In this document: positions 8,441-64,000 of the stretch, piece after piece | How positions within the stretch are numbered: the first letter of the stretch is position 1 | Layout of the letters: the number at the start of each line of letters is the position of its first letter | Assembly: GCA_964355175.1 (NCBI GenBank) | Contig: CAYHBZ010000001.1 | Location: 368,523-432,522 of the forward strand | Direction: 5' to 3' | From: an uncultured Gammaproteobacteria bacterium | GTDB lineage: Bacteria > Patescibacteriota > Patescibacteriia > Magasanikbacterales > GWA2-37-8 | DNA: 64,000 bases | The notes under the pieces: model-generated | What the model was told of the DNA's origin: nothing | The model's input: the letters and a program-made list of their open reading frames with translations, nothing else | Database searches by the model: none | Program-made: the position numbers and the translations under genes

Positions 8441-8498
8441 GTCATCCCGAACGCAGTGAGGGATCTTGGTAAAGATTCCTCGTTTCACTCGGAATGAC
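8441..8498. repeat. palindromic repeat pair (two 25-nt units, GTCATCCCGAACGCAGTGAGGGATC and GATTCCTCGTTTCACTCGGAATGAC) in the groES-groEL spacer
   Basis: Each unit is a hairpin, and the two units are imperfect inverted copies of each other. Related units occur at 42916-42980, and an exact 25-mer copy at 42411-42435. Confidence 0.6.
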
Positions 8499-8836: not shown

Positions 8837-8863
8837 TTTTATCACTCAAATTGTTTGAGTGAT
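8837..8863 (-). promoter_or_regulatory. CIRCE (HrcA operator) inverted repeat upstream of groES
   Basis: TTATCACTC-N9-GAGTGATAA against the consensus TTAGCACTC-N9-GAGTGCTAA. The 9-nt spacer is exact, and the two half-sites carry one symmetric mismatch each. It lies 23 nt upstream of the groES start. Confidence 0.7.
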
Positions 8864-9111
8864 AATTATCATTATTTTAATGGATTTTTATTAAGTTTGT
8901 CAAGATTTAGCAGTTCAAATTTCCACATTTTTTCCACAGTAAAATTTGGCTTACTTAAAACAAAAATCCAGAGTTGGAGACGAACTCTTAGCGCCGTCCA
9001 TATATTGTCCGGACTATGCCTGTCTATGGTGTAGCCCGAAGCTATGGCGAACGCAAGGGTCTGTCCCCAATTCTGGGTTCTTATCTCAGTTCTATAGTTT
9101 GTGTATGGAGT

Positions 9112-20520: not shown

Positions 20521-20528
20521 ACAAAAAA

Positions 20529-22172
20529 TTATTTTGTTACAGTTATTGCTTCTCCGTTTTCAGGAGAACACGACTGCACATTAATACGACCGGCGGCGGT
20601 TTTTTTCACAGCGTAATAAGTTTTGGCACTATCGCCCACCTTTGGATCAAACGGAATAGAAGTGATATAGGTTGGCGCCAGCGCGGAAGAAATATCCAAA
20701 CAAGCGGCCGCTGTAGACGACGAAGCACCCACACTGCCTTGCACCACAGTCTGCGTACCGGCCAGATCCACACTCTTTAATTCCGGCGTCATTGATGTAG
20801 CAGGAGAATCAAAAAAAGTTTTATACTGAAAATATTGATTACTACCAATATTACTAAGTGATAAGGACGGAGTGGAAATAGATGTATTACTACTTTCTGA
20901 ATAATAAGTATTGACTGTATTGTCCGGACCAATAAATGTACCGTCTGAACAATTGGCTTGAGCGCAGCTTCGGACTTGGTATTTCAATGATAGGGCGCCG
21001 CGTTTGTACATATCAGTTACTTCTGTAGCTGACATAGAACGATTAAAAATAATTGCCTCATCCACCAAGCCATTATATTGGCCAAATCCCAACTGAATTG
21101 GGGTAGTGTTATTCCTAATACTAGTAAAGGCAAAATTCTTTGTAGACAACAAAACTCCGTTTAAATAAATTTTTCCTACACCATTATCAAAAGTAAAAAT
21201 TATATGTTGCCAGGCATTATCACCTATCCAAGTACCGTCCTGATATTCATAAGTAGTGCCAGCTGGATTAACTAAAAATACTCGCCAATAAACATTGCCG
21301 CTAATAGAGAAAGATCCATTACTAGGATTAAAACCAGCACCTTTTCCAATAATATGTCCGTAGCTTGGCCAACTGCTGGTAGCCACACTATTAAACCAAG
21401 CACCGAATGTAAGTTGATTAGAAAAAGTTAAGCTGGTACTATTTGGAACTGTTATTGGATTAGTACCGGCTTTAAAATTAGCGGCATTACCGAACTTACC
21501 AGATATCATGCTTGGACAGTTTGGATTAACACAATTTCCATTATTATTTTTACCTGAAGTATCTAAAAAAGCGGTGGCACCACTGCTTTCATCTAAATGC
21601 AATAATAATAAATTACCGCTCATATTGGCATTACCGGTGGGATAACCAGTTTCGGCAGCACTATTATTTGGCAAGGACTTTCCTGTAGGACGATTTGGCA
21701 CCCACGCCAAGGTCGTCCAACTAGTGACACCGGCTGAATCTTTTATGTTTGAAGTATATGTACCGGAAGTCTTATTAACCGAAAGGCTCAGCAAACTTGT
21801 ACCATTATTATAATTAGTGTTGGAAAATGTTCCGGAAAAAGTGGATTGGCTATTGTCGGTAATAGCGACTGGCACGGTTTGAGAAGTAGAACTACCGGCT
21901 ACTGGACCACAACTCACTCCACATCCTGATCCACTGGTACCAAGCATTCTCAAATTGGTATCGATAGATCCAGGAAAGGCCCCACTATTATCGAGCGAAT
22001 ACTGATAGATGGAATTTAAAATAGCACTAGCGTCTGATTGCCTAGCGGCATTCCTAGAGGCCGCTAATTGCTTACCTGGATTTATGGCAACAATCACAAT
22101 ACCAGCCAACACCGCAATTGCGGCCACGACTAAAAGAATTTCTAATAATGTAAACCCAGAATTTTTTTTCAT
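20529..22172 (-). CDS. type IV pilin-like protein with LamG_3 domain, paralog 2
   Basis: GFTLLEILLVVAAIAVLAGIVIVAINP N-terminus. Divergent LamG-like middle. Conserved C-terminal ~130 aa. Confidence 0.75.
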   Translation of the reverse strand: MKKNSGFTLLEILLVVAAIAVLAGIVIVAINPGKQLAASRNAARQSDASAILNSIYQYSLDNSGAFPGSIDTNLRMLGTSGSGCGVSCGPVAGSSTSQTVPVAITDNSQSTFSGTFSNTNYNNGTSLLSLSVNKTSGTYTSNIKDSAGVTSWTTLAWVPNRPTGKSLPNNSAAETGYPTGNANMSGNLLLLHLDESSGATAFLDTSGKNNNGNCVNPNCPSMISGKFGNAANFKAGTNPITVPNSTSLTFSNQLTFGAWFNSVATSSWPSYGHIIGKGAGFNPSNGSFSISGNVYWRVFLVNPAGTTYEYQDGTWIGDNAWQHIIFTFDNGVGKIYLNGVLLSTKNFAFTSIRNNTTPIQLGFGQYNGLVDEAIIFNRSMSATEVTDMYKRGALSLKYQVRSCAQANCSDGTFIGPDNTVNTYYSESSNTSISTPSLSLSNIGSNQYFQYKTFFDSPATSMTPELKSVDLAGTQTVVQGSVGASSSTAAACLDISSALAPTYITSIPFDPKVGDSAKTYYAVKKTAAGRINVQSCSPENGEAITVTK

Positions 22173-22175
22173 CTT

Positions 22176-23810
22176 CTATTTTGTTAGACTAATGGCCTCG
22201 CCATTCTCCACTGAACAAGCTTGAACATTTATTCTACCGCCAGCTGTTTTTTTTGCAGCATAATATGTTTGGCTGTTGCTACCGGTTTTGGGATCAAATG
22301 GCAGGGATGTAATATAGGTTGGTGCAAGAGCTGACGAAAGATCTAAACAAGCGGCTGCGGTGGTGGATGAAGATCCTCCGCCAGAACCACTAGTACTCCC
22401 ACTAATTACAGCACTTTTTAGCTCAGGAGTTAAGGCAGAATCAGTGGTGTCTAGAAATGCTTTGTATTGGAAATATCGATTGTTGGAAATATTGGTGAGA
22501 GATAGTGATGGAGTGGCGTTGGAAGTGTTGGAAGCTTCGGAATAATAGGTGTTGGTAGTGCCATCAGGACCAAAAAATGTACCGTCAGAACAGTTGGCTT
22601 GAGCGCAGGATCTAGTTTGAAATTTTAGACTTAGAACACCGCGTTTGTAAATGTCTGAGATTTCTGTGGCGGATAGGGATCGGTTGAAGACAGACGCTTC
22701 ATCGATGGTGCCGGTAAAATTATATGCCAAAACACCTGATTCCCCACCACTAAAATCCGTTCCGATATGGGCTACCGCGTTATTAATTCTAGGTTGACCG
22801 GTCTGAGAAGAACTGCCATCCAACACCCCGTTAATATAATATTTTACTGTTGCGCCATCCCAGGTAGCACTAATTAAAGACCATTGATTTAAATTTACTG
22901 CTCCGGTTCCAATATTGGCCGCTCCACCTACCCACAGTTGTATTCTACCGGTATTATTATACAACCCAAACCAATAGGCGGTGGCATGAGCTTTGGCTAT
23001 TACTGTATGATAGGTATGATCAGAAAAAGATGTTGGATAAATCCAAGCACTCCATGTGCCTTGACCCACATCCAAACTATTACTGTCAGCAACATTTAAA
23101 TAGGTGTTATTAAAATTACCAGCTGTACCAAATTTTCCAATTTGACCCATCGTAGGACAGGCGTTACCACTACAAGTCGCATTATTACCACTCCCCGAAC
23201 TATCGGAAAATGTAGTTGCTCCAAGAGCTTCGTTCAAATGTAGAAGTAAAACATTGCCGTTCATATTGATATTGCCGGCTGGATAACCACTTTCAGTAGC
23301 GCTATTATTTGGCAAGGCTTTGTTGGTAGGACGATTTGGGGTCCAAGCAAGAGAAGACCAAGTCGCGCTAGCAGTAGTGTCTTTAATGTCTGAGGTATAG
23401 GTGCCTGAGGTTTGGGACGAAGAAAGGTTTATTAAACTAGTATTGGTGTTGTAAATGGTGTTGGCATATATACCAGCAAAGGTTGATTGGCTATTGTCGG
23501 TGATGGTGAGAGTGTTACCACTCGAGGAACTACTGCTTGCCCCACCGCAGGATACATTACAACCGGAGGCGGCGGTGCCAATCATTTTTAGATTAGTATC
23601 TATATTATTTGGAAATTGTCCATTGTTATCCAAAGAATATTGATAAATTGAATTTAAAATTGCACTAACATCTGATCTTCTAGCAGTGTTCCTGGTAGCC
23701 GCCAGCTGTCTGGCCGGATTTATTGCCACAATCACAATACCGGCCAACACCGCGATCGCGGCCACGACCAAAAGAATTTCTAATAATGTAAAAGCTTTTG
23801 CTTTTTTCAT
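22176..23810 (-). CDS. type IV pilin-like protein with LamG_3 domain, paralog 3
   Basis: KAFTLLEILLVVAAIAVLAGIVIVAINP N-terminus. Divergent middle. C-terminus ~90% identical to paralogs 1 and 5. Confidence 0.75.
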   Translation of the reverse strand: MKKAKAFTLLEILLVVAAIAVLAGIVIVAINPARQLAATRNTARRSDVSAILNSIYQYSLDNNGQFPNNIDTNLKMIGTAASGCNVSCGGASSSSSSGNTLTITDNSQSTFAGIYANTIYNTNTSLINLSSSQTSGTYTSDIKDTTASATWSSLAWTPNRPTNKALPNNSATESGYPAGNINMNGNVLLLHLNEALGATTFSDSSGSGNNATCSGNACPTMGQIGKFGTAGNFNNTYLNVADSNSLDVGQGTWSAWIYPTSFSDHTYHTVIAKAHATAYWFGLYNNTGRIQLWVGGAANIGTGAVNLNQWSLISATWDGATVKYYINGVLDGSSSQTGQPRINNAVAHIGTDFSGGESGVLAYNFTGTIDEASVFNRSLSATEISDIYKRGVLSLKFQTRSCAQANCSDGTFFGPDGTTNTYYSEASNTSNATPSLSLTNISNNRYFQYKAFLDTTDSALTPELKSAVISGSTSGSGGGSSSTTAAACLDLSSALAPTYITSLPFDPKTGSNSQTYYAAKKTAGGRINVQACSVENGEAISLTK

Positions 23811-23821
23811 TATTTTTTTTA

Positions 23822-24268
23822 TTATCTAGTAACACTGATAGATGCGCTATTTTCGGCAGATGGAGCGCTGACAGTAATGCGTCCATTGGCAGTCTGTAAA
23901 ATTTTATAACCGGTACCATTGGTACTGGCGGCGGTTGGATCGGTTGGAATAGCCGTCAAATAAACTTCGTTTAAAGTAAGTGCGGACAAATCCACTAGGC
24001 CAGCACAACTACCACCGGTCTTACAAACTTCTACCGCGTTCTGAGTAATACCAGATGGCAATGCGCCTTTATTATCAATTGAATATTGATAAACAGCGTT
24101 TAAAATCGTGTTCACATTTACTCTTCTTTGCGCGTTACGAGTATCGGCCAATTGTTTGCCTGGATTGATAGCAATAATTACGATACCGGCCAAAATGGCG
24201 ATAGCGGCCACCACCAATAAAATTTCTAAAAGGGTAAAACCCTTTTTATTTAAATTTTCCATATTCAT
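23822..24268 (-). CDS. short type IV pilin (148 aa) lacking the LamG insert
   Basis: KKGFTLLEILLVVAAIAILAGIVIIAINP prepilin N-terminus. Its C-terminal beta-domain (…TANGRITVSAPSAENSASISVTR) is homologous to the C-terminal module of the large paralogs. Confidence 0.75.
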   Translation of the reverse strand: MNMENLNKKGFTLLEILLVVAAIAILAGIVIIAINPGKQLADTRNAQRRVNVNTILNAVYQYSIDNKGALPSGITQNAVEVCKTGGSCAGLVDLSALTLNEVYLTAIPTDPTAASTNGTGYKILQTANGRITVSAPSAENSASISVTR

Positions 24269-24310
24269 ATTATGAATAATTAATAAATTAATTTTTTAAA
24301 TTAGATATAT

Positions 24311-25996
24311 TTATCTTGTCACACTTATAACTTCAGAATTTTCCGCGCTACAGGCCTGAACATTTATTCTGCCACCAGCGGTCTTTTGAATGGCATAATA
24401 TGTCTGGCTGTTACTACCAGTTTTGGGATCAAATGGTAATGAAGTGATATAAGTTGGAGTCAATGCCGAAGAAAGATTCAAACAAGCGGCAGCGGTGGTG
24501 GACGAAGAAGATCCTCCACTAGAACCACTGGTACTCCCGCTAATTATAACACTTTTTAACTCCGGAGTTAAGGCGGAATCGACGGTATCTAGAAATCCTT
24601 TATATTGGAAATATCGATTATTGGAAATATTAGCGAGAGACAGTGACGGAATAGTATTGGAGGTGTTGGAAGCTTCGGAATAATAGGTATTGGCAGTGCC
24701 GTCGGGGCCGGCGAATGTACCGTCGGAGCAGTTGGCTTGGACACAACTGCGGACTTGGTATTTTAGACTAAGGGCGCCGCGTTTGTAATGGTCGGCAACT
24801 TCGGTTGCAGAAAGGGCGCGGTTATAAAGAGCAAATTCATCCAATGTACCACTAAAAAAATAATTTGTTCCGGCTCCGCGGTCGCCAAAATAAATTGGCT
24901 GATTACCAAAATTATTGGTATTATTGGCATTCAGACCACTGTTTGTGCCGGTAGTTTTTGATCCATTTATATAGGTAGAGACTTCGTTGGTTGGCAAACT
25001 TTTATCAAACACTACCACCACATGATACCAAACATTGGTCTGTAAAATATTATCAGCCACCCAAACAGAATAATACACATTGCCTCGTACGCCGGCTCCA
25101 ATTTTACCGTTAGGATTGATCGATACAACGTAACCATCGGAAACATTATTATAATTTGTAGAAGCTTCAAAAATTTGTTCACCGACAGCTGGTGTCAAGG
25201 AAGCAGGTTTAAACCAAAAAGATACCGATATTTTGTTGGTAGCCGAGACATCTACCGGACCAGTCTTGGCATAGTCATCTACCCCATCAAACTTTACACC
25301 TGTGCCAAAAATTCCACTTGATTGATAAGTTAATCCATTAAAAGTAGCGGCATTATTACCACTGCCAGATAAATCTTGCCAAGCTCCGCTCGCTTCATCC
25401 AGGTGATACAAAAGTACATCCCCACTCATGTTAGCATTCCCACTTGGATAACCGGTTTCAGTGGCACCAGAGTTTGGCAATGGTTTATTGGTAGGACGAT
25501 TTGGTATCCAAGCCAATGTAGACCAAGTGGCACTGGCGGTGGCGTCTTTAATGTCTGAAGTATACGTACCAGGGGTTTGGTTGGCAGAGAGATTTAAGAG
25601 ATTATTATTTGTATTGTAAGTGGTGTTGCTGTAAGTACCGGCAAAAGTGGATTGACTATTATCGGTAATGGATACAGGACCACCACTGCTGGTGGCACTA
25701 CTGGCACCACAAGAAACATTACAACCGGAATTTGATGTACCGAGCATCCTTAGGTTAGTATCGATGGTGTTTGGGACCAACCCAGTATTATCTATCGCGT
25801 ATTGATAAATTGCGTTTAAAATTGCGCTCACATCACTACGACGAGCAGCATTTCTTGTTTGGGCTAATTGTTTGGCCGGATTTATTGCAACCACAACTAT
25901 ACCGGCTAAAATGGCAATAGCGGCCACTACCAGAAGAATTTCTAGCAAAGTGAAACCAGTTTTAATTTTATAACATTTATGCTCCATAATTACCAA
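24311..25996 (-). CDS. type IV pilin-like protein with LamG_3 domain, paralog 4 (561 aa)
   Basis: TGFTLLEILLVVAAIAILAGIVVVAINP N-terminus. LamG-like middle (…FDGVDDY…WYHVVVVFD…YINGS…). Conserved C-terminus. Confidence 0.75.
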   Translation of the reverse strand: MVIMEHKCYKIKTGFTLLEILLVVAAIAILAGIVVVAINPAKQLAQTRNAARRSDVSAILNAIYQYAIDNTGLVPNTIDTNLRMLGTSNSGCNVSCGASSATSSGGPVSITDNSQSTFAGTYSNTTYNTNNNLLNLSANQTPGTYTSDIKDATASATWSTLAWIPNRPTNKPLPNSGATETGYPSGNANMSGDVLLYHLDEASGAWQDLSGSGNNAATFNGLTYQSSGIFGTGVKFDGVDDYAKTGPVDVSATNKISVSFWFKPASLTPAVGEQIFEASTNYNNVSDGYVVSINPNGKIGAGVRGNVYYSVWVADNILQTNVWYHVVVVFDKSLPTNEVSTYINGSKTTGTNSGLNANNTNNFGNQPIYFGDRGAGTNYFFSGTLDEFALYNRALSATEVADHYKRGALSLKYQVRSCVQANCSDGTFAGPDGTANTYYSEASNTSNTIPSLSLANISNNRYFQYKGFLDTVDSALTPELKSVIISGSTSGSSGGSSSSTTAAACLNLSSALTPTYITSLPFDPKTGSNSQTYYAIQKTAGGRINVQACSAENSEVISVTR

Positions 25997-34094: not shown

Positions 34095-35015
34095 TTATTT
34101 ATTATCTAGATCAACTGACCAAGATTTATAACACCAATCTTGACCGTCTAAAGGCTCAAATTTTGCGGAAAAATCCGTACCGGCCGTACGGCAAAGCTGG
34201 CCGACAGCACCATCAAAATTCTTTAATGGAGGGGTTTCCGGTATGTGCTTTTTAACAAGCAGCGCCTCTTTTTCTGTTTTAAATCCTAAAAAATAAACAA
34301 CTTCTCCATACTTAACAAGAAATTTCGCACCAAGACCATCTTTACCGGTTGATCTAACAACCTGTTGGGTTGCGTCGTAATCATATACATCATCAAAACC
34401 ATCGACTTTTTTAAGTCCAACTTTATACATTGCCACAAATGTATTTGGCAAAGCCTTTTCCGAATCAACATCAGCGTCAACGACTTCTACAGGCATAAGC
34501 ACGTCTGTTGATTTATATAACTCAACCGACCAAGATTTATGACACCAATTTTGACCATCTAGGGGCTGAAACTTCGCAGAAAAATCAGTACCGGCAGTAT
34601 TACAAAGCTTTCCCTTTATCCCGTCAATTTTAGAAAAATTTTTAAGCGGCGGAGTTTCAGGTGTAAACTTCTTAACAAGTAACGCCTCTTTTTTTGTTTT
34701 AAAACCTAAAAAGTAAACGACTTCATCTGGCTTAACGACAAATATAGCCGAGTTACCTTTGCTACCCGTTGACTTTATTGTTTGTTGAATTGCTTCATAG
34801 TCATATACATTATCATAACCAGCAACTGGTTTAAGTTTTACCTTATACATTGCCACAAATGTATTTTTTAGAACCTTGGCTGGTTCAACATTTGCGTCAA
34901 CCACCTTAACAGGAAAATTCACATTAGTGCCTTTGGCTGCCAAAACAGAATCTGGAGAAAATAGCGCCATCGCCATCATTGCTATTAGCGAAAAAACCAA
35001 TCTTGGTAATCTCAT
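34095..35015 (-). CDS. secreted protein with internal tandem duplication of a ~140-aa domain (hypothetical)
   Basis: Signal peptide. Two repeats share …NTFVAMYKV.LK.V.G.D.VYDY.A.QQ…VVYFLGFKT.KEALLVKK..PETPPLKNF…C.TAGTDFSAKF.PLDGQ.WC.KSWSV.L. Confidence 0.55.
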   Translation of the reverse strand: MRLPRLVFSLIAMMAMALFSPDSVLAAKGTNVNFPVKVVDANVEPAKVLKNTFVAMYKVKLKPVAGYDNVYDYEAIQQTIKSTGSKGNSAIFVVKPDEVVYFLGFKTKKEALLVKKFTPETPPLKNFSKIDGIKGKLCNTAGTDFSAKFQPLDGQNWCHKSWSVELYKSTDVLMPVEVVDADVDSEKALPNTFVAMYKVGLKKVDGFDDVYDYDATQQVVRSTGKDGLGAKFLVKYGEVVYFLGFKTEKEALLVKKHIPETPPLKNFDGAVGQLCRTAGTDFSAKFEPLDGQDWCYKSWSVDLDNK

Positions 35016-40428: not shown

Positions 40429-42903
40429 CTATCTTACTTCCGCGTTAAATTCTTTTTTTAGTTCTTCTTGCGCTTTTTTTACAGCGTTTTCTATTTCTTC
40501 TGTGGTGAGCGTGCGATCACTGTGCGCGTAAGTGAGGCGATAGGCCATACTCTTATAGCCTTCGCCAATTTTGTTTCCCTCGTAAACATCGAATAGTTCT
40601 ATATTTTTTAGCAGAGCATTGGTTTTTTTCAATGCTTTCAAAATATCAGCGTGGGTAAATTCTTTTTTTACCAAAAAGCCGAGATCGCGGGTCACTGCTG
40701 GATACACGGAAGCGGTGTGATAATTTGTCTTATCACCTTGTCTAGACAGCATTTCTACCAATATTGACAAATTCAACTGCAACACACCGACGCGCTGTTC
40801 AATACCCAAATTCTGAGCTATCAGTGGGCTAATTTCACATACTACACCAAGCACTTCGCCATGCGCCCGAACCAAAGCTAATCTGGCCGGATGTTCCCAA
40901 GGTTGTACCATATCGGCTGGCACAATTTCAAAATCGGTTTTAAGCGCGGCAAAAATATTTTCCAAAGCGCGGCGGGCCTGCCAAAATGGCGTGGCTTCTT
41001 TTTTCCCAGCATATACCGCGGCCACCCAAGTATCTTGTTTTGGCAACAAACTATCACCGTTGCTATCCAGACGCAAACCGCTTTGTTTGGTAGAAAAAAC
41101 TTTTCCAATTTCAAAAATTTTTACTTCCGAATAATTTTCAATATTATTTTTTACATTCTCCAACAAATTTGGCAATAAATTGCGACGCAAAAACGGACGC
41201 TCTTTGGAGAGTGGATTATCCAATTCCAAATATTTTTTCAGATCATCCCCCATTTTTATCACCTGAGCGTCACTGACAAAAGAATAATTATACACTTCAT
41301 TATATCCCAAACTTTTTACCAAAGTCTCAGCGACATTTCTTTCCAAATCACGCAAAGCATTTTTCTCCGGCGGATTAATTGAAAAAGACGGTAAGCTTGA
41401 AGGAATATTTTCATAACCAAAAAATCTAGCCACTTCTTCCACAATATCTTCGGAAATGGAAATATCTTTGGTAGCACGCCAGGTTGGAATCGTTACCAGC
41501 AAACTCTTTTTCTTGGTTTTCACTTCAAAACCCAAACGCGTCAAAATATTTAAAATATCTTTCTGCGGAATTTCCGTGCCTAATTTTTTAGCAAAAATTT
41601 CATTTGGCAATTCTATTGGCCCGACCGAAAGGTGAAATTTCTTTTCATCCACTACTTTGCTGGCGACCTTGGCGTCCGGACAAAATTCCAATGCCAATTC
41701 CACGGCTTTAAGCAATGCCACTTCACAGAGATTTGGATCCAAACTCTTTTCAAAACGCATGGCCGAATCGGTACGCAAACCCAAACGAGTAGAAGTTTTA
41801 CGCACAGCTGAAGCATTGAAATTGGCTGATTCAAAAATTACCGTAGTAGTGTCGTCGTAAGTACCGCTCTCCAGACCACCTTTTACACCCGCGATGCCTA
41901 GAGATTTATTTTCAGCGACAATCATGAGATCGTTTTCCGACAAAACATATTCAGCTTCGTCCAAAGCCACAAATTTTTCCCCTTCTTTGGCACTACGCAC
42001 GCCGATATTATGACCGACTTTAGCCGCGTCAAAAGCATGCATTGGCTGGCCAAGTTCCAACATTATATAATTGGTAATATCCACGATATTATTAATCGGG
42101 TTGGACCCCACGGCCAACAATTTTTCTTGAAGCCATTTTGGCGACGGACCAACTTTTATACCCGATACGGCCACTGCCATATAGCGTGGACAAAGTTTAA
42201 AATTCTCCACTTCCACTTTTAATTTAAAATCTTTACCTGGTTTTATTTTTGGTGTTTCGTATTTTTTTAAATCACGATTAAATAGCACGGCCACTTCACG
42301 GGCAATACCATAATGACCCCAGAGATCCGGGCGATTGGAAAGAGATTTGTTATCTATTTCCAAAATTGTATCATTGAGACCAAGTACTTGGGACAATGGA
42401 AGACCGATAAGATTCCTCGTTTCACTCGGAATGACGGCGCCACTTGCAATGACAGCGGTGAGATCCAAAATTTCTTTTTCTTCTTTGGACGTAAACATTT
42501 CTCCCAAACCAATTTCATCCGCCGCACAGATCATACCAAAAGATTCCTCACCGCGAATTTTGGTAGGTACCAATTCAATCAATTCCCCTTCTCCATGCCA
42601 CTGCACTTTGGCTCCGACTTGGGCAATCGCGGCCAGCATTCCCTCTGCCACATTACTGCCACCACAGACTATCTGTAATTCTTCCGAACCCACATCCACG
42701 CGGCATAATTTTAATTTATCGGCATTAGGATGCTTAGTAGCGGAAACAACTTTACCAACTACCACATTATTCAAAAGCTCACCTTGTTTTTTTATACCTT
42801 CCACTTCTACCGTAGTGGCTTTCAAGCGAGCGGCCACTTCTTCCACGGTAATAGTATCGGACAAATTCACGAATTTTTTTAACCAATTATAGGAAATTAA
42901 CAT
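40429..42903 (-). CDS. pheT: phenylalanine--tRNA ligase beta subunit
   Basis: Canonical MLISYNWLKKF start (Met18 of the longest ORF), tRNA-binding, B3/4, B5 and FDX-ACB domains. The 17-codon upstream extension of the longest ORF is just the translation of the palindromic repeat. Confidence 0.92.
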   Translation of the reverse strand: MLISYNWLKKFVNLSDTITVEEVAARLKATTVEVEGIKKQGELLNNVVVGKVVSATKHPNADKLKLCRVDVGSEELQIVCGGSNVAEGMLAAIAQVGAKVQWHGEGELIELVPTKIRGEESFGMICAADEIGLGEMFTSKEEKEILDLTAVIASGAVIPSETRNLIGLPLSQVLGLNDTILEIDNKSLSNRPDLWGHYGIAREVAVLFNRDLKKYETPKIKPGKDFKLKVEVENFKLCPRYMAVAVSGIKVGPSPKWLQEKLLAVGSNPINNIVDITNYIMLELGQPMHAFDAAKVGHNIGVRSAKEGEKFVALDEAEYVLSENDLMIVAENKSLGIAGVKGGLESGTYDDTTTVIFESANFNASAVRKTSTRLGLRTDSAMRFEKSLDPNLCEVALLKAVELALEFCPDAKVASKVVDEKKFHLSVGPIELPNEIFAKKLGTEIPQKDILNILTRLGFEVKTKKKSLLVTIPTWRATKDISISEDIVEEVARFFGYENIPSSLPSFSINPPEKNALRDLERNVAETLVKSLGYNEVYNYSFVSDAQVIKMGDDLKKYLELDNPLSKERPFLRRNLLPNLLENVKNNIENYSEVKIFEIGKVFSTKQSGLRLDSNGDSLLPKQDTWVAAVYAGKKEATPFWQARRALENIFAALKTDFEIVPADMVQPWEHPARLALVRAHGEVLGVVCEISPLIAQNLGIEQRVGVLQLNLSILVEMLSRQGDKTNYHTASVYPAVTRDLGFLVKKEFTHADILKALKKTNALLKNIELFDVYEGNKIGEGYKSMAYRLTYAHSDRTLTTEEIENAVKKAQEELKKEFNAEVR

Positions 42904-42915
42904 AATATTTTTATT

Positions 42916-42980
42916 GTCATTCCCGTGAAAACGGGAATCTATTACTTCAAACACTTGATTCCCGCTTTCGCGGGAATGAC
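42916..42980. repeat. palindromic repeat pair (GTCATTCCCGTGAAAACGGGAATC … GATTCCCGCTTTCGCGGGAATGAC) in the pheS-pheT spacer
   Basis: Same unit architecture as 8441-8498: each unit is a hairpin, and the two units are inverted copies of each other. Confidence 0.6.
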
Positions 42981-42982
42981 AG

Positions 42983-44014
42983 TTAGAACTGTTTTAGAAA
43001 TTTTAAATCACCGCTTTCGAGATGGCGGATGTCTTCAATGCCATACTTCAACATAGCTAAGCGTGTAAGCCCCAATCCAAAAGCAAACCCCTGATATTTA
43101 TTAGGATCTACTTTCCCTTCCTTTAAAACATTGGGATGAATCATGCCGGCGCCAAAAATTTCTAACCAACCGGTATTTTTACAAACTCTACAGCCTTTGC
43201 CTTTGCAAATAAAACAAGTTACTTCCCCATTTACACCCGGCTCTACAAATGGATAATATTTTGGACGCAAACGCACTTGCGTATCGACGCCGTACAAATG
43301 TTTAGCGACCGCCTCAAGCACGCCCTTCATGTGAGCAAAAGTAATATTTTCATCAATCACAAAACCTTCCAATTGATAAAAAGTGTGTTCGTGGCGCGGG
43401 TCGGTAGCTTCGTTTCTATAACATTTACCTGGCACAATCGCGCGTAGTGGCGCCCCCTGCTTAAGCATAGAGCGTACCTGCATCGAAGAAGTGTGCGTAC
43501 GCATCACCATACCAGGATGATTTTTGATATAAAAAGTATCCTGCATATCACGCGCCGGATGATTCTCAGGCACATTCACTGCGGAAAAATTAAAATAATC
43601 ACTTTCCAACTCCGGACCATCAAGCACCATAAAACCCATGGAAACAAAAAAATCTTCCAAGTCTTTTTGGATAATAGTGTTCGGATGAAAAGTGCCTGGT
43701 TCAATATGTGGTAAAGCAGGCTGAGTAATATCCACCCGCTCTTTTTCTACCGCTTTGTTCCAATCCGCATTCATTAATTCATTTTTCTTTATTTCAAACG
43801 CCGCTTCAATATCTTTTTTTACTTCATTGGCTATCACACCCACTACTTTACGAGCCTCATCGGTGAGATCTTTGAGCCCTTTCATCAAATTAGTAAGCTC
43901 CCCGCTTTTGCGACCAAGAAATTTATTTTCCAAATCTTCGAGCTGGATTTTATCACTCACGGATTTGATGGCAAGCAAGGCTTCAGTTTTGAGTTGTTCA
44001 AATTTTGATTGCAT
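42983..44014 (-). CDS. pheS: phenylalanine--tRNA ligase alpha subunit
   Basis: 343 aa. Class II motifs (…FRPKYYPFVEPG…, …GFAFGLGLTRLAML…). Confidence 0.93.
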   Translation of the reverse strand: MQSKFEQLKTEALLAIKSVSDKIQLEDLENKFLGRKSGELTNLMKGLKDLTDEARKVVGVIANEVKKDIEAAFEIKKNELMNADWNKAVEKERVDITQPALPHIEPGTFHPNTIIQKDLEDFFVSMGFMVLDGPELESDYFNFSAVNVPENHPARDMQDTFYIKNHPGMVMRTHTSSMQVRSMLKQGAPLRAIVPGKCYRNEATDPRHEHTFYQLEGFVIDENITFAHMKGVLEAVAKHLYGVDTQVRLRPKYYPFVEPGVNGEVTCFICKGKGCRVCKNTGWLEIFGAGMIHPNVLKEGKVDPNKYQGFAFGLGLTRLAMLKYGIEDIRHLESGDLKFLKQF

Positions 44015-51266: not shown

Positions 51267-51366
51267 AGAGGATATTATATCACCTATAAATAAAATGACA
51301 CAAATCCAAAAAAATGGTAAAATAATAACTACTATTCTCGTGAAAATGAGAATCTAATAGAATATT

Positions 51367-61076: not shown

Positions 61077-62420
61077 ATGAAAACCAATATAATTTTCACT
61101 TGCTCAAACTGCAATGCCCAATTCCAAAAATGGACCGGGCGGTGTTTGGAATGTGGTAAATGGGGTACGGTGGAAAAAAATATGATAACTGCTAGTGCGG
61201 TTAAAAATAACGAAACAAATAATCATCCCATAGCTAAAACGATAAAACTTTCCGAAGTAAACCAACAAAATTTTGCCCGTTTAAAGACCAATATATCAGA
61301 ATTGGATAGAGTTCTTGGCGGCGGAATTGTGCCTGGAAGTCTAATTCTCCTTGGCGGCGATCCCGGCATTGGCAAATCCACTCTAGCCCTACAGCTATCG
61401 GCCATTTTTGCGGATGCATTATATTTTTCTGGTGAGGAGTCGGTAGAACAAATCAAACTACGCGCCAGCCGTCTGGAAATTTCATCCTCTACCCTGGGAT
61501 TGGCCAACGAAACCAACGTGGAAACTATTATTGCTACCGCGATTGCCCAAAAAACCAAGCTCACAATAGTAGACTCCATTCAAACCATGCGCTCAGCCGA
61601 AGTAGAAGGCGAAGCCGGCAATATAAATCAGGTCCGTGCTTGTACCGTAAAATTGATGGAAGCGGCCAAAAAAAATAATATTACTTTTATCCTGATTGGC
61701 CAAGTAACTAAAGACGGCAATGTAGCCGGACCAAAAACTTTGGAACATTTGGTAGATACCGTACTCTATTTGGAAGGTGATCGCTTTCATGATTTTCGTA
61801 TTTTAAGAGCCGCCAAAAATCGCTTTGGGCCAACTGACGAAGTCGGAATTTTTACAATGGAAAAAGACGGTCTACGCGAAGTAAAAAATCCTTCCGCTTC
61901 CCTGCTGGGAGAACGCACTGATTCAGTACCAGGCACAATTATCACTTGTGTGATGGAAGGTACTCGGCCAATGCTAATTGAAATACAAGCCCTAGTCACC
62001 AAAACTAATTTCGGTTTCCCTCAGCGCCGCTCATCAGGATTTGATCTCAACCGTCTACAGGTTTTAATTGGTGTATTATCTCGTCGTGCTGGACTACCAC
62101 TAGAAAGTTATGACGTCTTTTTAAATGTGGTTGGTGGGCTAGAGGTAGACGAACCAGCCGCAGACCTAGCTGTAATCATGGCAATAGCTTCAGGCCTCAA
62201 AGACAAAACTATCCCTATTGGCCTAGCCGCTTTTGGTGAAGTAGGTCTCAGCGGTGAAGTACGCTCAGTAAATAATACTGAGAAAAGATTAAATGAAATA
62301 AAAAATTTAGGACTTCAAATTGCTGTCTTACCAGCATCGGCCAAACTACCAAAAATTACTGGCCTAAAAATCGCTCCAATCAAAAACGTCCAGGAGGTGG
62401 TAGAAAAAATAATCCAATAA
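61077..62420 (+). CDS. radA: DNA repair protein RadA/Sms
   Basis: N-terminal C4 zinc finger (CSNCNAQF…CLECGKWG), RecA-like Walker A GGDPGIGKST, the KNRFG motif, and a C-terminal Lon-like domain. Confidence 0.92.
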   Translation: MKTNIIFTCSNCNAQFQKWTGRCLECGKWGTVEKNMITASAVKNNETNNHPIAKTIKLSEVNQQNFARLKTNISELDRVLGGGIVPGSLILLGGDPGIGKSTLALQLSAIFADALYFSGEESVEQIKLRASRLEISSSTLGLANETNVETIIATAIAQKTKLTIVDSIQTMRSAEVEGEAGNINQVRACTVKLMEAAKKNNITFILIGQVTKDGNVAGPKTLEHLVDTVLYLEGDRFHDFRILRAAKNRFGPTDEVGIFTMEKDGLREVKNPSASLLGERTDSVPGTIITCVMEGTRPMLIEIQALVTKTNFGFPQRRSSGFDLNRLQVLIGVLSRRAGLPLESYDVFLNVVGGLEVDEPAADLAVIMAIASGLKDKTIPIGLAAFGEVGLSGEVRSVNNTEKRLNEIKNLGLQIAVLPASAKLPKITGLKIAPIKNVQEVVEKIIQ

Positions 62421-62442
62421 ACAGAAGAAGTCTGACAGAATA

Positions 62443-62637
62443 AAAAATCTGGATATAATATAACAAAATAAGTGAGCGCTGAAAATCCGAGCAAATAATT
62501 TGTGAGCCGACGAAGCGTGGCTGGCCGTGCTGTATGAGGAGCCAAGCGACGAGTTCACGGCCAGAGCTTTGGCGGGTTGCAAATTATGCGAGGATTTTCA
62601 CAGCGAACGTTTTTGTTATATTATATCCAGATTTTTT
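62443..62637. repeat. ~195-bp nested palindromic element (possible structured ncRNA, MITE, or bidirectional terminator) between radA and recG
   Basis: Perfect 27-bp terminal inverted repeats AAAAAATCTGGATATAATATAACAAAA / TTTTGTTATATTATATCCAGATTTTTT. A GC-rich interior carries further inverted repeats (GCGCTGAAAATC/GATTTTCACAGCG; CTGGCCGTG/CACGGCCAG). The right arm overlaps the recG stop codon. Confidence 0.5.
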
Positions 62638-64000
62638 ATTCGAGATGCACCAACTTTTCGAAACTTTTTATCTTTTGTTTTAACAGTGGTAATTTATCCA
62701 AATTATCAGCCGCTTTTACCGCTGCTTCGCGCGCCATTTTTACGATAGTGTAATCGGTTAATTTAGCCAATTGCAACCCGGCAACACCGCTTTGAGCCGT
62801 GCCATATACTTCGCCTGGTCCCCTATCCTCTAGATCTTTTTGTGCCAATTTAAAACCACTCAAATTGCCTTCAAAGAATTTTAATCTATCTAAAGTTTTT
62901 TCACTAGCGCTGTCGGTAAATAAAAAACAATAAGATTGATGAATAGATCGCCCAACACGACCGCGGAATTGATGTAACTGTGCCAAACCAAAACGCTCCG
63001 CACCCTCGATCATCATCACCGAGGCATTAGGTATATCAATACCTACTTCTATCACCGAAGTAGCCACCAAAATATCAATCTCATGATTTTTAAATCTTCT
63101 CATAGTTGATTCTTTTTCAGCGGACTTTAGTTTGCCGTGGAGAAAATCTACTTTCAAATCCGGGAATATTTTCTTGGATAATTTTTCATATTCGGCCAAG
63201 ACGGATTTCTTATCACCGCTATCATTTTCAATAAGAGGACACACCACAAACGCCTGACGACCCTGCCGGATCTGCGCCCGAATAAAATCATAAGCTTTTT
63301 GTCGATTATACACTTCTACCAACCTACTCATAATTGGCTTGCGTCCGGCTGGCAATTCGTCAATCACCGACAGGTCCAGATCGCCATATAAAGTGAGCGC
63401 CAAAGAACGTGGAATCGGCGTGGCAGTCAAACTAAGAAAATGCACGCCTTTGCCTTTTTGTTTTATATCTTGGCGTTGTTCCACGCCAAATCTATGCTGC
63501 TCATCGACTATAGCCAAACCTAATTTTTTAAATTCAATTTTCTCCGATAATAAAGCGTGAGTACCAATTGCCAAAGCAATTTTACCGTTCTTTAAATCTT
63601 CTACTATTTCTTTTTTCAATTTTTTACTTTCAATATTTTCTTCACCAGCATTCTTGGCAAATTGCGAACGAGTAAATAAACAAATAGGAGTATCGAGGTG
63701 AAATAACAAACGACTCAAATTATCAAAATGTTGCTTGGCCAAAATTTCGGTTGGTGCTAGCAATACAGACTGAAAACCATTTAAGGTGGTATTATATAGT
63801 GCCATGGCGGCCACGACCGTTTTACCAGAGCCAACATCCCCAGATAACAAACGATTCATCGGAGTGGGCTTAGACAGATCTTTCAAAATTTCCCAAGCTG
63901 ATAATTTTTGTGGTTTAGTCAAAGCGAACGGCAATTTTCCCACAAATTCCTTGATTTCTTTTTCTTTGAAATCCAATGCGGGCGCCTTTTGCAAAGCCCG
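62636..64000 (-). CDS. recG: ATP-dependent DNA helicase RecG (C-terminal ~450 aa; N-terminus beyond window end)
   Basis: Walker A GDVGSGKT, DEQHRFGV (DEAH box), a helicase C-terminal domain, and a TRG motif region. No start codon within the window. Confidence 0.88.
   Translation of the reverse strand, partial: RALQKAPALDFKEKEIKEFVGKLPFALTKPQKLSAWEILKDLSKPTPMNRLLSGDVGSGKTVVAAMALYNTTLNGFQSVLLAPTEILAKQHFDNLSRLLFHLDTPICLFTRSQFAKNAGEENIESKKLKKEIVEDLKNGKIALAIGTHALLSEKIEFKKLGLAIVDEQHRFGVEQRQDIKQKGKGVHFLSLTATPIPRSLALTLYGDLDLSVIDELPAGRKPIMSRLVEVYNRQKAYDFIRAQIRQGRQAFVVCPLIENDSGDKKSVLAEYEKLSKKIFPDLKVDFLHGKLKSAEKESTMRRFKNHEIDILVATSVIEVGIDIPNASVMMIEGAERFGLAQLHQFRGRVGRSIHQSYCFLFTDSASEKTLDRLKFFEGNLSGFKLAQKDLEDRGPGEVYGTAQSGVAGLQLAKLTDYTIVKMAREAAVKAADNLDKLPLLKQKIKSFEKLVHLE

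What the first reader, a model, noticed from the sequence alone, without database searches (positions are those of the whole stretch)
42411..42435. Exact 25-nt copy of the repeat unit embedded in-frame inside the pheT coding sequence
GATTCCTCGTTTCACTCGGAATGAC at 42411-42435 is identical to unit B of the groES-groEL element (8474-8498). It lies inside pheT, where it is translated as …AVIPSETRNL…. A 25/25 match cannot be chance. Either the mobile repeat unit inserted into, or converted part of, an essential gene while preserving frame, or the coding segment seeded the intergenic elements.
Basis: seen in the sequence. Interest (0 to 1): 0.55.

Follow-up and report, generated by a model that had tools for sequence, protein, structure and literature searches.

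The report
Hairpin repeat translated inside PheT loop
A 25-base copy of a widespread hairpin-forming repeat sits in frame inside the essential phenylalanyl-tRNA synthetase beta gene of a candidate-phyla-radiation bacterium, where it encodes nine residues of a floppy surface loop that related bacteria have had colonised by the same repeat family again and again.

Summary
GATTCCTCGTTTCACTCGGAATGAC occurs exactly twice, at 8474-8498 and 42411-42435, with none expected by chance. The second copy is in phase inside pheT (40429-42903, minus strand) and encodes VIPSETRNL, PheT residues 157-165.

It is a solo unit of a REP/REPIN-like hairpin family (GTCAT, 5-bp stem, tandem G·A, stem-loop, ATC). Compensatory changes across 71 variants support the hairpin. 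The window also holds inverted pairs in the groES-groEL and pheS-pheT spacers.

The peptide is extra relative to solved PheT structures and lies in an AlphaFold segment with pLDDT below 50. Most orthologs lack it. Seventeen of 120 Magasanikbacteria orthologs carry recognisable repeat-derived peptides at this same site. They differ in subtype and in being solo or paired, and are scattered over the tree.

The 25/25 identity does not show direct copying between the two loci. The exact 25-mer occurs in at least 120 metagenome contigs (GC 0.31-0.70), and an ortholog with 86% protein identity has 24/25 at the same codons.

"The coding sequence seeded the repeats" is rejected. The closest analogues are Rickettsia palindromic elements and REP/REPINs. 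How the element moves is unknown.

The parts
42411..42435 (-). Solo repeat unit (GA-type, 'unit B') GTCATTCCGAGTGAAACGAGGAATC inside pheT. It is in phase 0 and encodes V157-N164 plus the first base of L165 (VIPSETRNL with the next two bases).
   Evidence: Family hairpin supported by covariation. On its own it is only a weak hairpin.
42436..42453 (-). Degenerate 5' half-unit plus 5-nt joint, GTCATTGCAAGTG-GCGCC, encoding VIASGA (residues 151-156). This is 18 nt that the closest carrier (P0003) does not have. It is a remnant of an earlier or overlapping unit at the same site.
   Evidence: codon alignment: window = P0003 + 18 nt.
40429..42903 (-). pheT (phenylalanine--tRNA ligase beta subunit), 824 aa, with all five Pfam domains of bacterial PheT.
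42916..42939 (+). Fully paired unit (CCCG-type) GTCATTCCCGTGAAAACGGGAATC, the pheT-proximal half of the inverted pair in the pheS-pheT spacer.
   Evidence: (I8).
42957..42980 (-). Fully paired unit GTCATTCCCGCGAAAGCGGGAATC, the pheS-proximal half of the pair. It starts 2 nt after the pheS stop codon.
42904..42982 (-). The whole pheS-pheT spacer (79 nt), made almost entirely of the REPIN-like doublet. It is absent from the close relatives L081, L082, L086 and L090, where pheS and pheT abut (TAA/TAG-T-ATG). A homologous filled spacer is present in L089.
   Evidence: Long hairpin, RNA -41.3 kcal/mol, z -10.4.
8441..8465 (+). GA-type unit 'A', GTCATCCCGAACGCAGTGAGGGATC, in the groES-groEL spacer.
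8474..8498 (-). GA-type unit 'B' in the groES-groEL spacer, identical to the pheT copy. With unit A it forms an inverted doublet with an 8-nt spacer.
   Evidence: Doublet hairpin, RNA -27.9 kcal/mol, z -5.6.
51331..51354 (+). Decayed unit ACTATTCTCGTGAAAATGAGAATC, 12 nt upstream of the ATG of the CoA-ligase-like gene. An intact unit (GTCATTCCCGTAAAAACGGGAATC) sits next to the corresponding gene in relative L082.
42983..44014 (-). pheS (alpha subunit), the upstream gene of the operon.
   Evidence: Pfam on orthologous neighbours.

Best explanation
The 25-mer is a solo unit of a non-autonomous, REP/REPIN-like small palindromic repeat family.

Architecture. A unit is (T)GTCAT, then a 5-bp stem of which three pairs covary, then a constant tandem G·A, then a short distal stem-loop, then the mirror half ending in ATC. 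In a second subtype the stem is fully paired with a GAAA loop. Units usually occur between genes as inverted doublets that fold into one long hairpin.

History at this site. A unit became fixed in the DNA encoding the linker loop that follows the tRNA_bind (B2) domain of PheT. This happened in an ancestor shared at least with the P0003 lineage. It is translated as nine loop residues. It persists because the loop is flexible and exposed, and because in this phase the unit encodes a hydrophilic, turn-prone peptide.

Why the loop is a hotspot. The loop is one of very few permissive places in an essential 800-aa enzyme, so repeated arrivals of units survive only there.

Why the match is perfect. 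Both window copies sit at the family's conserved master sequence, kept so by constraint on the hairpin and/or by occasional gene conversion. It is not evidence that one copy was made from the other.

Shown: family membership, hairpin covariation, loop location, absence from most orthologs, recurrent occupation of the site, and wide distribution.

Inferred: mobility in trans by a hairpin-recognising enzyme (a single-strand HUH/Y1 transposase such as a RAYT is the obvious candidate), and selective filtering as the cause of the hotspot and of the phase bias.
For: Family and structure:
- 5 units match GTCATYCC-N8-18-GGRATC in the window against 0.01 expected.
- On 71 distinct 25-mers harvested only by their termini, 85.7% of cells pair against 70.6% in shuffles. 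There are 99 double-sided changes against 33.5±6 (0 of 500 shuffles reach this). Slid controls score 0.02-0.21 against 0.441. GA...GA is constant.
- The doublets fold far better than shuffles.

Not native sequence:
- Alignment to E. coli PheT 3PCO_B shows IIELPA-DA-PIG against ILDLTAVIASGAVIPSETRNLIG, about 12 extra residues.
- AlphaFold gives pLDDT below 50 and coil for residues 153-162, against a mean of 85.8.
- About 95 of 120 orthologs have a short loop here.

Age:
- P0003 has GTCATTaCGAGTGAAACGAGGAATC at the same codons. P0009 has a copy matching 16 of 25.

Hotspot:
- 25 of 120 orthologs have at least 5 extra residues at this site, and 17 of these are recognisable unit peptides (VIPAKAGI..DSRFHGND, VILSKTKDP..ALPQND, MDSRFRGND, and others).
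- DNA confirms intact units in L087, L089, L001, L211 and L212.
- Fitch parsimony on the NJ tree needs 16 changes for 17 carriers, with the root state 'absent'.
- Sister pairs differ: P0038/P0037 at 85.5% identity and P0012/P0018 at 83.6%.

Distribution:
- The exact 25-mer is in at least 120 metagenome contigs of GC 0.31-0.70. 41 of 121 occurrences have an inverted partner downstream. Only about 5-9% lie in long ORFs.
- Planktothrix plasmids carry tandem doublets of a variant with compensatory changes.
- Units occur in other CPR loci and in a Chloroflexi locus.

Other in-frame cases, in the same phase: TsaD, phosphoglucomutase and UvrB of Magasanikbacteria.
Against: - No transposase or any other recurrent neighbouring gene was found next to units. 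All-vs-all clustering of 2043 ORFs gave none. tblastn with a RayT sequence recalled from memory found nothing. The only Y1 transposase seen is an ordinary IS200-like gene in L001 with its own end hairpins.
- No empty and filled pair of near-identical strains was available, so movement itself is not demonstrated.
- No target-site duplication and no conserved target motif was seen beyond a T before GTCAT.
- Sister comparisons look like replacement rather than clean insertion. For example, 30 nt replace 12 nt in P0038 versus P0037. This fits templated repair or conversion at least as well as cut-and-paste.
- All carriers at the PheT site are in one phase. Selection alone has to work hard to explain that.
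- The signal for nucleotide-level constraint is weak: 8 of 8 synonymous codons identical between the window and P0003, against 64% gene-wide, p about 0.03. The neighbouring KEEKEILD codons are equally identical.
Confidence: 0.72

Rival explanations
1. Site-specific, phase-exact integration. The element, or the enzyme that moves it, recognises something at this position of pheT and at the pheS stop/pheT start junction. It inserts or excises precisely there, so the hotspot reflects targeting rather than survivorship.
For: - All 17 carriers are in the same codon phase and within one codon of each other, although other frames are open.
- GTCAT-type units are found only at this PheT site, whereas a different hairpin family (..GGSAFGG..) occupies the loop near residue 220.
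- The pheS-pheT spacer insert has the same flanks in the window and in L089 (TAA-CT-[doublet]-AA(TA)AAAATATT-ATG), while relatives of each have abutting genes. There is no recombination tract around it.
- A Chloroflexi locus also has a doublet ending 3 nt before the pheT ATG.
- Patchy presence (16 changes for 17 carriers) is what precise excision and re-insertion by a single-strand Y1 transposase would give.
Against: - No shared target motif was found among insertion flanks or in empty sites.
- In-frame copies in other genes use the same phase relative to the element end (most). That points to the encoded peptide being selected rather than to a pheT-specific target.
- Decayed copies (P0009, probably ADKKNI in P0002/4/5) show decay in place, not clean excision.
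- No enzyme was identified.
Confidence: 0.2
2. Concerted evolution by gene conversion or short-patch recombination. A unit has sat in this loop for a long time and is repeatedly overwritten from other genomic copies, or from related lineages via the conserved flanks. This keeps it perfect and changes its subtype without any transposition.
For: - The window copy is 25/25 to the master sequence while the adjacent half-unit has diverged at 2 of 13 positions.
- Sister comparisons show replacement-type differences, not clean insertions.
- The flanking coding DNA (AAAGAAATTTTGGAT......GAAATAGATAATAAA) is highly conserved and could serve as homology arms.
- Unit subtype at the site tends to match subtypes seen elsewhere on the same contig. 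L089 and L001 carry both types, and L211 and L212 carry the CCCG type.
Against: - Most orthologs have a short loop of the same length as in E. coli, with no trace of a unit, and they surround the carriers on the tree. An ever-present unit is therefore not parsimonious.
- The donor of the window copy is not the groES-groEL unit, because the flanks differ.
- There is no elevated identity to L089 around the operon junction.
Confidence: 0.3
3. The inserted hairpin or peptide has been co-opted. It might act as an mRNA element pausing translation between the B2 domain and the rest of PheT, or as a functional loop of PheRS.
For: - Near-perfect conservation between two lineages with 82% nucleotide identity, 8 of 8 identical codons.
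- Recurrence of the same kind of insert at the same domain boundary.
- The intergenic doublets sit between co-translated subunit genes (groES/groEL, pheS/pheT). From general knowledge, E. coli REPs in such positions modulate mRNA stability and upstream-gene translation.
Against: - The solo unit is a weak hairpin (RNA -4.8 kcal/mol, z -1.0). The 71-nt pheT context folds no better than shuffles, z +0.3.
- Most orthologs do without it. Relatives let it decay.
- AlphaFold sees a disordered loop.
- The statistical signal is weak, p about 0.03.
Confidence: 0.07
4. The PheT coding segment is the origin of the repeat, having seeded the intergenic copies.
For: Only the identity of the two copies.
Against: - The unit family is found in Cyanobacteria, Chloroflexi, several CPR lineages and many unidentified contigs spanning GC 0.31-0.70, mostly outside genes.
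- Most PheT orthologs lack the segment.
Confidence: 0.01

Closest known systems
Rickettsia palindromic elements (RPEs; Ogata et al. 2000, as summarised in PMC10969869)
   Same: A palindromic dispersed repeat inserted in frame into unrelated, often essential, genes. It is translated and apparently tolerated because it lands in surface-compatible positions. One reading frame of the element is used preferentially.
   Different: RPEs are about 100-150 bp, specific to Rickettsia, and defined by their own sequence families. The unit here is 24-27 nt (65-90 nt as a doublet), has no sequence relationship to RPEs, occurs across phyla, and is mostly intergenic.
REP sequences / BIMEs / REPINs mobilised by RAYT transposases (PMC3116915, PMC3337134)
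   Same: Imperfect palindromes of 20-40 nt with a conserved 5' tail. They occur as inverted doublets with a short spacer that fold into a long hairpin, are dispersed mostly between genes (often between genes of one operon), and are non-coding and non-autonomous.
   Different: The conserved tail is (T)GTCAT rather than GTAG/GT[AG]G. No RAYT was found. REP families are normally specific to a lineage, whereas this exact 25-mer is shared by genomes of GC 0.31-0.70. REPs are by name extragenic, whereas these units are repeatedly translated.
Small dispersed repeats (SDR) of Nostocaceae (Elhai et al. 2008, Genome Res 18:1484; cited in PMC3116915 and PMC5861425; paper not held, so details are from memory)
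   Same: Very small (21-27 nt) hairpin-like dispersed repeats that appear mobile, with no known mobilising enzyme.
   Different: They were reported only in Nostocaceae (PMC5861425). Sequence relationship to the GTCAT family could not be checked here.
QMITE2 / small REP-like form in Coxiella burnetii (PMC5896051)
   Same: A REP-like palindrome that overlaps gene ends and is also found in distant taxa (alphaproteobacteria).
   Different: It is about 80-190 bp. Its sequence is not given in the text, so identity with this family is untested. The overlaps described are at gene termini, not internal in-frame loops.

Membership tests
REP / REPIN | Short (about 20-40 nt) imperfect palindrome able to form a hairpin | tested here: met
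   Units are 24-25 nt. Covariation on 71 variants supports 7 pairs plus a constant tandem G·A. CCCG-type units fold at -7.8 to -9.0 kcal/mol as DNA, z -4 to -5.
REP / REPIN | Inverted doublets separated by a short spacer that form one long hairpin | tested here: met
   groES-groEL doublet (8-nt spacer) and pheS-pheT doublet (17-nt spacer), z -5.6 and -10.4. 41 of 121 metagenome occurrences have an inverted partner 7-83 nt downstream. The pheT copy itself is a singlet.
REP / REPIN | Conserved GTAG (GT[AG]G) tetranucleotide at the 5' end | tested here: not met
   The conserved tail is (T)GTCAT in all units.
REP / REPIN | Cognate single-copy RAYT (Y1 transposase) gene flanked by the repeats | tested here: inconclusive
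   No hit to a recalled E. coli RayT in the window or in 2.26 Mb of fetched loci. There was one ordinary IS200-like TnpA in L001 with unrelated end hairpins. The window is only about 7% of a genome of roughly 0.95 Mb, so absence is not informative.
REP / REPIN | Many copies per genome, overwhelmingly extragenic | tested here: inconclusive
   There are 5 intact and 1 decayed units in 64 kb, and 8 in 19 kb of L089. About 91-95% of metagenome occurrences lie outside long ORFs. The whole-genome count could not be made.
Rickettsia palindromic elements | Membership of one of the RPE sequence families (about 100-150 bp) of Rickettsia | tested here: not met
   Unit length is 25 nt, and the organism is Candidatus Magasanikbacteria. 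It is an analogy of behaviour only.
Rickettsia palindromic elements | In-frame insertion within ORFs at positions compatible with the fold | tested here: met
   The unit is in phase 0 in pheT. The loop has pLDDT below 50 and is extra relative to PDB PheT. The same holds in TsaD, PGM and UvrB of relatives.
MITE | Terminal inverted repeats plus target-site duplication, derived from a parent IS | tested here: not met
   Doublets have inverted ends, but no direct duplications flank any of the 8 intragenic or 3 intergenic cases examined. No parent IS was found.
Rfam RNA families | Match to a curated covariance model | tested here: not met
   No hit at gathering score in the window. Only chance-level long-hairpin hits were found at the groESL doublet, E 0.02-10.

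The most novel reading that the evidence does not exclude
A structure-conserved 25-27-nt hairpin element, shared almost unchanged by bacteria from several phyla, integrates in a codon-phase-exact and site-specific way. Its targets would include a defined loop codon of PheT and the pheS/pheT junction, and loops of other essential enzymes (TsaD, UvrB, phosphoglucomutase), in streamlined CPR genomes. The mechanism would be an as yet unidentified hairpin-directed insertion and precise-excision process. The element's two usable frames would be pre-adapted to encode loop-forming peptides.
Probability: 0.2. Interest if true: 0.75.

Novelty: new variant of a known kind. Interest (0 to 1): 0.55.

Why it matters
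Candidate-phyla-radiation genomes are small and gene-dense, yet here a selfish-looking hairpin repeat is written into the coding sequence of an essential aminoacyl-tRNA synthetase. It also turns up in tRNA-modification, repair and sugar-metabolism enzymes of related Magasanikbacteria.

- It shows that the Rickettsia-style phenomenon of repeats inside genes exists in a very different lineage, with a much smaller element.
- It offers a natural map of insertion-tolerant loops in PheRS.
- It warns annotators that peptides such as VIPSETRNL, VIPAKAGIQ and DSRFRGND, and extended N-termini like the 841-aa pheT ORF here, are repeat read-through.
- It flags a cross-phylum repeat family with clear covariation but no Rfam model and no known mobilising enzyme.
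- The recurrent, single-phase occupation of one codon position gives a concrete way to test insertion targeting against selective filtering.

Tried and rejected
Only L001, L003 and a few CPR or Chloroflexi loci were useful.
- The look-up of encoding contigs for P0001 found nothing on record. The cause was not established.
- Literature searches by sequence and by peptide strings returned only primer noise, and no paper contains the peptide strings. Searches combining CPR with MITE/REP found nothing relevant. Elhai et al. 2008 is not held.
- A recombination or HGT tract around the pheS-pheT junction shared by the window and L089 was tested with sliding-window identity. No clear tract appeared beyond the shared insert itself.
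- I considered whether the AT-rich 12-mer after the doublet (AATAAAAATATT) is part of the element. I dropped the idea because such leaders precede most genes in the window.
- The doublets are not sense-strand intrinsic terminators, and the pheT unit is not an internal promoter or terminator. Nothing exceeded the shuffles.
- Phage carriage is negligible: 1 hit in 2.9 million viral contigs.
- Taxonomic naming of a high-GC contig through protein homologs returned only unnamed proteins.
- Clustering ORFs near units to find a recurrent neighbouring enzyme found none.
- I considered whether conserved native flanks (GGATCT upstream, AATGAY downstream) mimic element ends and create the hotspot. This was not testable here and is left as an idea.
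Full report
**1. Observation**

The 25-mer GATTCCTCGTTTCACTCGGAATGAC is present exactly at 8474-8498 and 42411-42435. There are no further matches with up to 3 mismatches, and none in 100 dinucleotide-preserving shuffles.

The second copy lies in pheT. This gene is on the minus strand, 40429-42903, and is 824 aa from the ATG (MLISYNW...). On the coding strand the unit reads GTC ATT CCG AGT GAA ACG AGG AAT C. It begins exactly at codon 157 and gives ...TAVIASGAVIPSETRNLIG....

An identical protein (P0001) is on record from NCBI, ENA and Logan assemblies on two contigs, the longest 953,736 bp. Its closest named relatives are Candidatus Magasanikbacteria, in the CPR/Patescibacteria.

The mechanical ORF call starts at an upstream GTG (841 aa). 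It reads through the intergenic repeat as ...DSRFHGND..., which is an annotation trap.

**2. The repeat family in the window**

The pattern GTCATYCC-N8-18-GGRATC finds five units against 0.01 expected.
- An inverted pair in the groES-groEL spacer: 8441-8465 (+) and 8474-8498 (-), with an 8-nt spacer.
- An inverted pair filling the pheS-pheT spacer: 42916-42939 (+) and 42957-42980 (-), with a 17-nt spacer.
- The solo unit in pheT.
- A sixth, decayed unit at 51331-51354, upstream of a CoA-ligase-like gene. Relative L082 has an intact unit next to the corresponding gene.

Two subtypes coexist.
- A fully paired type, GTCATTCCCG(C/T)GAAA(G/A)CGGGAATC, with an 8-bp stem and a GAAA loop. As DNA it folds at -7.8 to -9.0 kcal/mol, z -4.1 to -5.3.
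- The 'GA type' of the finding, GTCAT-TCC-GA-GT-GAA-AC-GA-GGA-ATC. Under nearest-neighbour rules it is only a weak hairpin (DNA -1.9, RNA -4.8 kcal/mol).

The doublets fold into single long hairpins: RNA -27.9 kcal/mol (z -5.6) and -41.3 kcal/mol (z -10.4). No Rfam family matches. Neither doublet looks like a sense-strand intrinsic terminator.

**3. The hairpin is real**

About 17 are expected by chance. I found 189 occurrences, of which 71 are distinct.

I then counted pairs for the structure ...(((((..((...))..))))). on these 71 sequences.
- 85.7% of cells pair, against 70.6±1.1% in shuffles.
- There are 99 cells with changes on both sides, against 33.5±6.0 (0 of 500 shuffles reach this).
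- The covariation score is 0.441, against 0.02-0.21 when partners are slid by 1-3 columns.
- The roughly 14 non-pairing sequences at each variable pair match the expected chance matches.
- Positions 6-8/20-22 covary (TCC/GGA, TTC/GAA, CCT/AGG, TCT/AGA, CCC/GGG, CTC/GAG), as do positions 11-12/16-17. G9A10 and G18A19 stay constant, so the helix carries a conserved tandem G·A.

This is a selected structure. Whether it acts as single-stranded DNA or as RNA cannot be decided here.

**4. The pheT segment is not native PheT sequence**

Against solved structures, E. coli PheT (3PCO_B) reads IIELPA-DA-PIG where the window reads ILDLTAVIASGAVIPSETRNLIG. That is about 12 extra residues, directly after the tRNA_bind (B2) domain.

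An AlphaFold model built on 44 orthologs has mean pLDDT 85.8. Residues 153-162 (ASGAVIPSET) are one of only three segments below pLDDT 50 and are modelled as coil.

In an alignment of the 120 best orthologs, about 95 have a short loop here, for example DLSNLKVKPG or DLTDKNFKVG.

**5. History in this lineage**

DNA of relatives was fetched, and compared.
- P0003 (86% protein identity) has GTCATTaCGAGTGAAACGAGGAATC, 24 of 25, at the same codons (VITSETRNL).
- P0009 has a decayed copy matching 16 of 25 (IVSSEAKNL).
- P0002, P0004 and P0005 have ...ADKKNI..., which has no hairpin. It may be a further decayed remnant.
- The nearest relative of P0003, P0005 (89.6%), lacks the unit.

Relative to P0003, the window has 18 extra nucleotides: GTCATTGCAAGTG-GCGCC at 42436-42453. 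This is a diverged 5' half-unit directly upstream of the perfect unit. At least two events have therefore touched this spot. Candidates are nested or adjacent insertion, unequal conversion, or a deletion between the direct repeats in the P0003 line. I cannot tell which.

Between the window and P0003, codons for identical residues are identical 64% of the time gene-wide but 8 of 8 times in the unit (p about 0.03). This is weak evidence for constraint or recent homogenisation, because the adjacent KEEKEILD codons are equally conserved.

**6. The site is a hotspot**

At this one alignment position, 25 of 120 orthologs have at least 5 extra residues. Seventeen of them are recognisable unit translations:
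- solo or paired CCCG-type: VIPAQAGIQ; VIPVKTGIQ; VIPAKAGI...DSRFHGND; VIPAKAGIQ...DSRLRGND; VILAKAGI...DSRFRGND
- GA-type: VILSKTKDP...DSSALPQND; VILSGAKDL...DSSAMPQND; VILSEAKDP...; VILNEVKDL...SAQND; VILSKAKDL
- a third subtype: VIASPASGGI...IATSARPSPPRND
- one reversed solo unit: MDSRFRGND

DNA confirms intact hairpin units in L087, L089, L001, L211 and L212.

On a neighbour-joining tree built from 810 well-occupied columns, the carriers are scattered. Fitch parsimony needs 16 changes for 17 carriers, with the root state 'absent'.

Sister pairs differ:
- P0038 against P0037 (85.5% identity): 30 nt including the unit replace 12 nt.
- P0012 against P0018 (83.6% identity): a 72-nt doublet is present in one and absent from the other.

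All carriers are in the same phase, with GTC|ATT at the outer 5' end and AAT|GAC at the outer 3' end.

A different hairpin family (..GGSAFGG..) occupies another PheT loop near residue 220, and never this one.

**7. The operon spacer**

In L081, L082, L086 and L090, pheS and pheT abut (TAA/TAG-T-ATG). The window and L089 (P0012, 70% identity) both have the doublet, with the same flanks:
- window: TAA-CT-[GTCATTCCCG.GAAA.CGGGAATC]-spacer-[GATTCCCGTTTTCACGGGAATGAC]-AATAAAAATATT-ATG
- L089: the same, with AAAAAATATT before the ATG

Sliding-window identity shows no recombination tract beyond the insert. A Chloroflexi locus (L078) also has a doublet ending 3 nt before the pheT ATG.

The patchy presence could reflect independent arrival, precise loss, or short-patch exchange.

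**8. Distribution beyond this genome**

- 41 of 121 occurrences have an inverted partner 7-83 nt downstream. The partner varies but keeps the architecture GATYCYTC...GRGRATGAC(A).
- Only about 11 of 121 lie in long open frames, several of them doubtful, mostly as VIPSETRN. or .IPRFTRND.
- Planktothrix agardhii plasmids carry three tandem doublets built on GTCATTCTGAGTGAAACGAAGAATC. This differs from the window unit by one compensatory pair.
- Among named genome loci around pheT, units occur in Magasanikbacteria, Uhrbacteria, other Patescibacteria and a Chloroflexi MAG. None occur in about 60 Firmicutes loci.
- Only 1 of 2.9 million viral contigs has the 25-mer.

The identity between the groES-groEL and pheT copies therefore reflects a conserved master sequence. 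It does not reflect a private copying event.

**9. Other translated copies**

In the relatives' contigs the same family is translated, in the same phase, in three further genes:
- TsaD (L001: VILSETKDP...RFAQND)
- a phosphoglucomutase (L089: VIPVQTGI)
- UvrB (L211: ...IATSPSAPRND)

In this phase, both orientations encode hydrophilic peptides rich in Pro, Ser, Thr, Asn, Asp, Arg and Gly. The alternative open frames give SFRVKRGI and FLVSLGMT. This makes selection on the peptide a credible cause of the phase bias.

**10. Mechanism**

*Shown:* a structured, dispersed, mostly intergenic repeat family; a unit embedded in frame in a disordered PheT loop; recurrent and phylogenetically patchy occupation of the same site.

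*Inferred:* units are non-autonomous and moved in trans. The REP/REPIN-RAYT system is the nearest model (PMC3116915). It shares the short imperfect palindrome with a conserved 5' tail, the inverted doublets, and the position within operon spacers.

*Against simple membership:*
- The tail is GTCAT, not GTAG.
- No RAYT or any recurrent neighbouring gene was found. The one IS200-like TnpA, in L001, has its own unrelated end hairpins.
- There are no target-site duplications.
- Sister comparisons look like replacement rather than clean insertion.

Gene conversion or templated repair therefore remains a serious alternative, or an additional process. A targeting mechanism cannot be excluded, given the single phase and single position.

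**11. Comparison with known systems**

In behaviour the nearest system is the Rickettsia palindromic elements, which are in-frame palindromic repeats in many genes (summarised in PMC10969869). In anatomy the nearest are REP/BIME/REPIN. In size the nearest are the 21-27-nt small dispersed repeats of Nostocaceae (Elhai 2008). I could cite that paper only through PMC3116915 and PMC5861425, so its details are from memory.

I found no paper in the held library that describes this GTCAT family or in-frame repeats in CPR genomes. That is absence from an open-access library, not proof of novelty.

**12. Verdict**

The feature is a new variant of a known kind, small palindromic repeats translated inside genes. 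Two aspects would surprise a specialist moderately: one loop codon of an essential synthetase is hit recurrently in a single phase, and the 25-mer is conserved exactly across phyla. Interest is 0.55.

Noticed in passing
window 62438-62641: A 204-nt element between radA (61077-62420, +) and a RecG-like helicase gene (62636-63994, -). It has 31-nt perfect inverted ends and folds into one almost perfect long hairpin (RNA -102.7 kcal/mol, z -10.7). There is no Rfam match. Its tip (GAGGAGCCAAGCGACGAG) resembles the inner part of the third repeat subtype (GTCATTGCGAGGAGCC..GACGAAGCAATC) seen in L211.
   Followed up: partly
window 8839-8865 and 8874-8903 (minus strand): A CIRCE-like inverted repeat, TTATCACTC-N9-GAGTGATAA, lies upstream of groES. 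Just upstream of it, on the groES strand, is a near-consensus promoter (TTGACA-18-TAAAAT). This looks like an HrcA-type heat-shock operator.
   Followed up: no
window 18892-25996 (minus strand): Four tandem paralogous genes of about 540-560 aa with a repeat period of about 1.64 kb (63-86% nucleotide identity). The two paralogs scanned (18892-20520 and 24311-25996) have a Laminin_G_3 (concanavalin-like) domain. One of them also has a sub-threshold N-terminal prepilin-type methylation motif. They look like a diversifying surface or pilus-associated protein array.
   Followed up: partly
PheT orthologs, alignment position after window residue about 215-222: A second insertion hotspot in PheT is occupied by a different GC-rich hairpin-derived peptide family (SAPGRSALGR, STRGRSAFGG, RGGSAFGGKE, GGPASGG). 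Further single cases occur at residues about 73, 298, 332 and 777-782. The GTCAT-type units never appear at these sites.
   Followed up: no
L001 10346-10428 (TsaD); L089 1849-1872 (phosphoglucomutase); L211 20512-20545 (UvrB): Further in-frame translated units or doublets of the same repeat superfamily sit in other essential or housekeeping genes of Magasanikbacteria. All have the element's outer end on a codon boundary.
   Followed up: partly
L214 (Planktothrix agardhii NIES-204 plasmid3, AP017994.1 about 4.6-5.1 kb): Three tandem doublets of about 90 nt, of the same family, lie in one intergenic region of a cyanobacterial plasmid. The left unit differs from the window unit by one compensatory base pair.
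   Followed up: partly
window 40429-42954 (minus strand): The longest ORF for pheT starts at a GTG inside the intergenic repeat and adds 17 spurious residues (MFEVIDSRFHGNDNKNI). L089 (P0012) is annotated with a similar 5-residue extension (MTKNI). Repeat read-through inflates N-termini in these genomes.
   Followed up: yes
window, upstream regions of about 40 genes: Almost no gene has a recognisable Shine-Dalgarno sequence. The leaders are A/T-rich (for example aaatatt-ATG). Many genes abut or overlap the previous one.
   Followed up: no
L001 12231-12731: An IS200/IS605-type Y1 transposase gene (HUH motif DHVHLQIE) lies next to a tRNA gene in a Magasanikbacteria contig. It has its own subterminal hairpins. 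The contig ends in GGTCATTTGT just downstream, too short to judge.
   Followed up: partly
window 799-1098 vs 1505-1804; 34102-34502 vs 34513-34922: Two further local duplications. One is a pair of adjacent paralogous genes (89% identity over 300 nt; ORFs 592-1314 and 1307-2002; the first has no Pfam hit and the second was not scanned). The other is an internal tandem repeat of about 410 nt inside ORF 34095-35015 (no Pfam hit).
   Followed up: no
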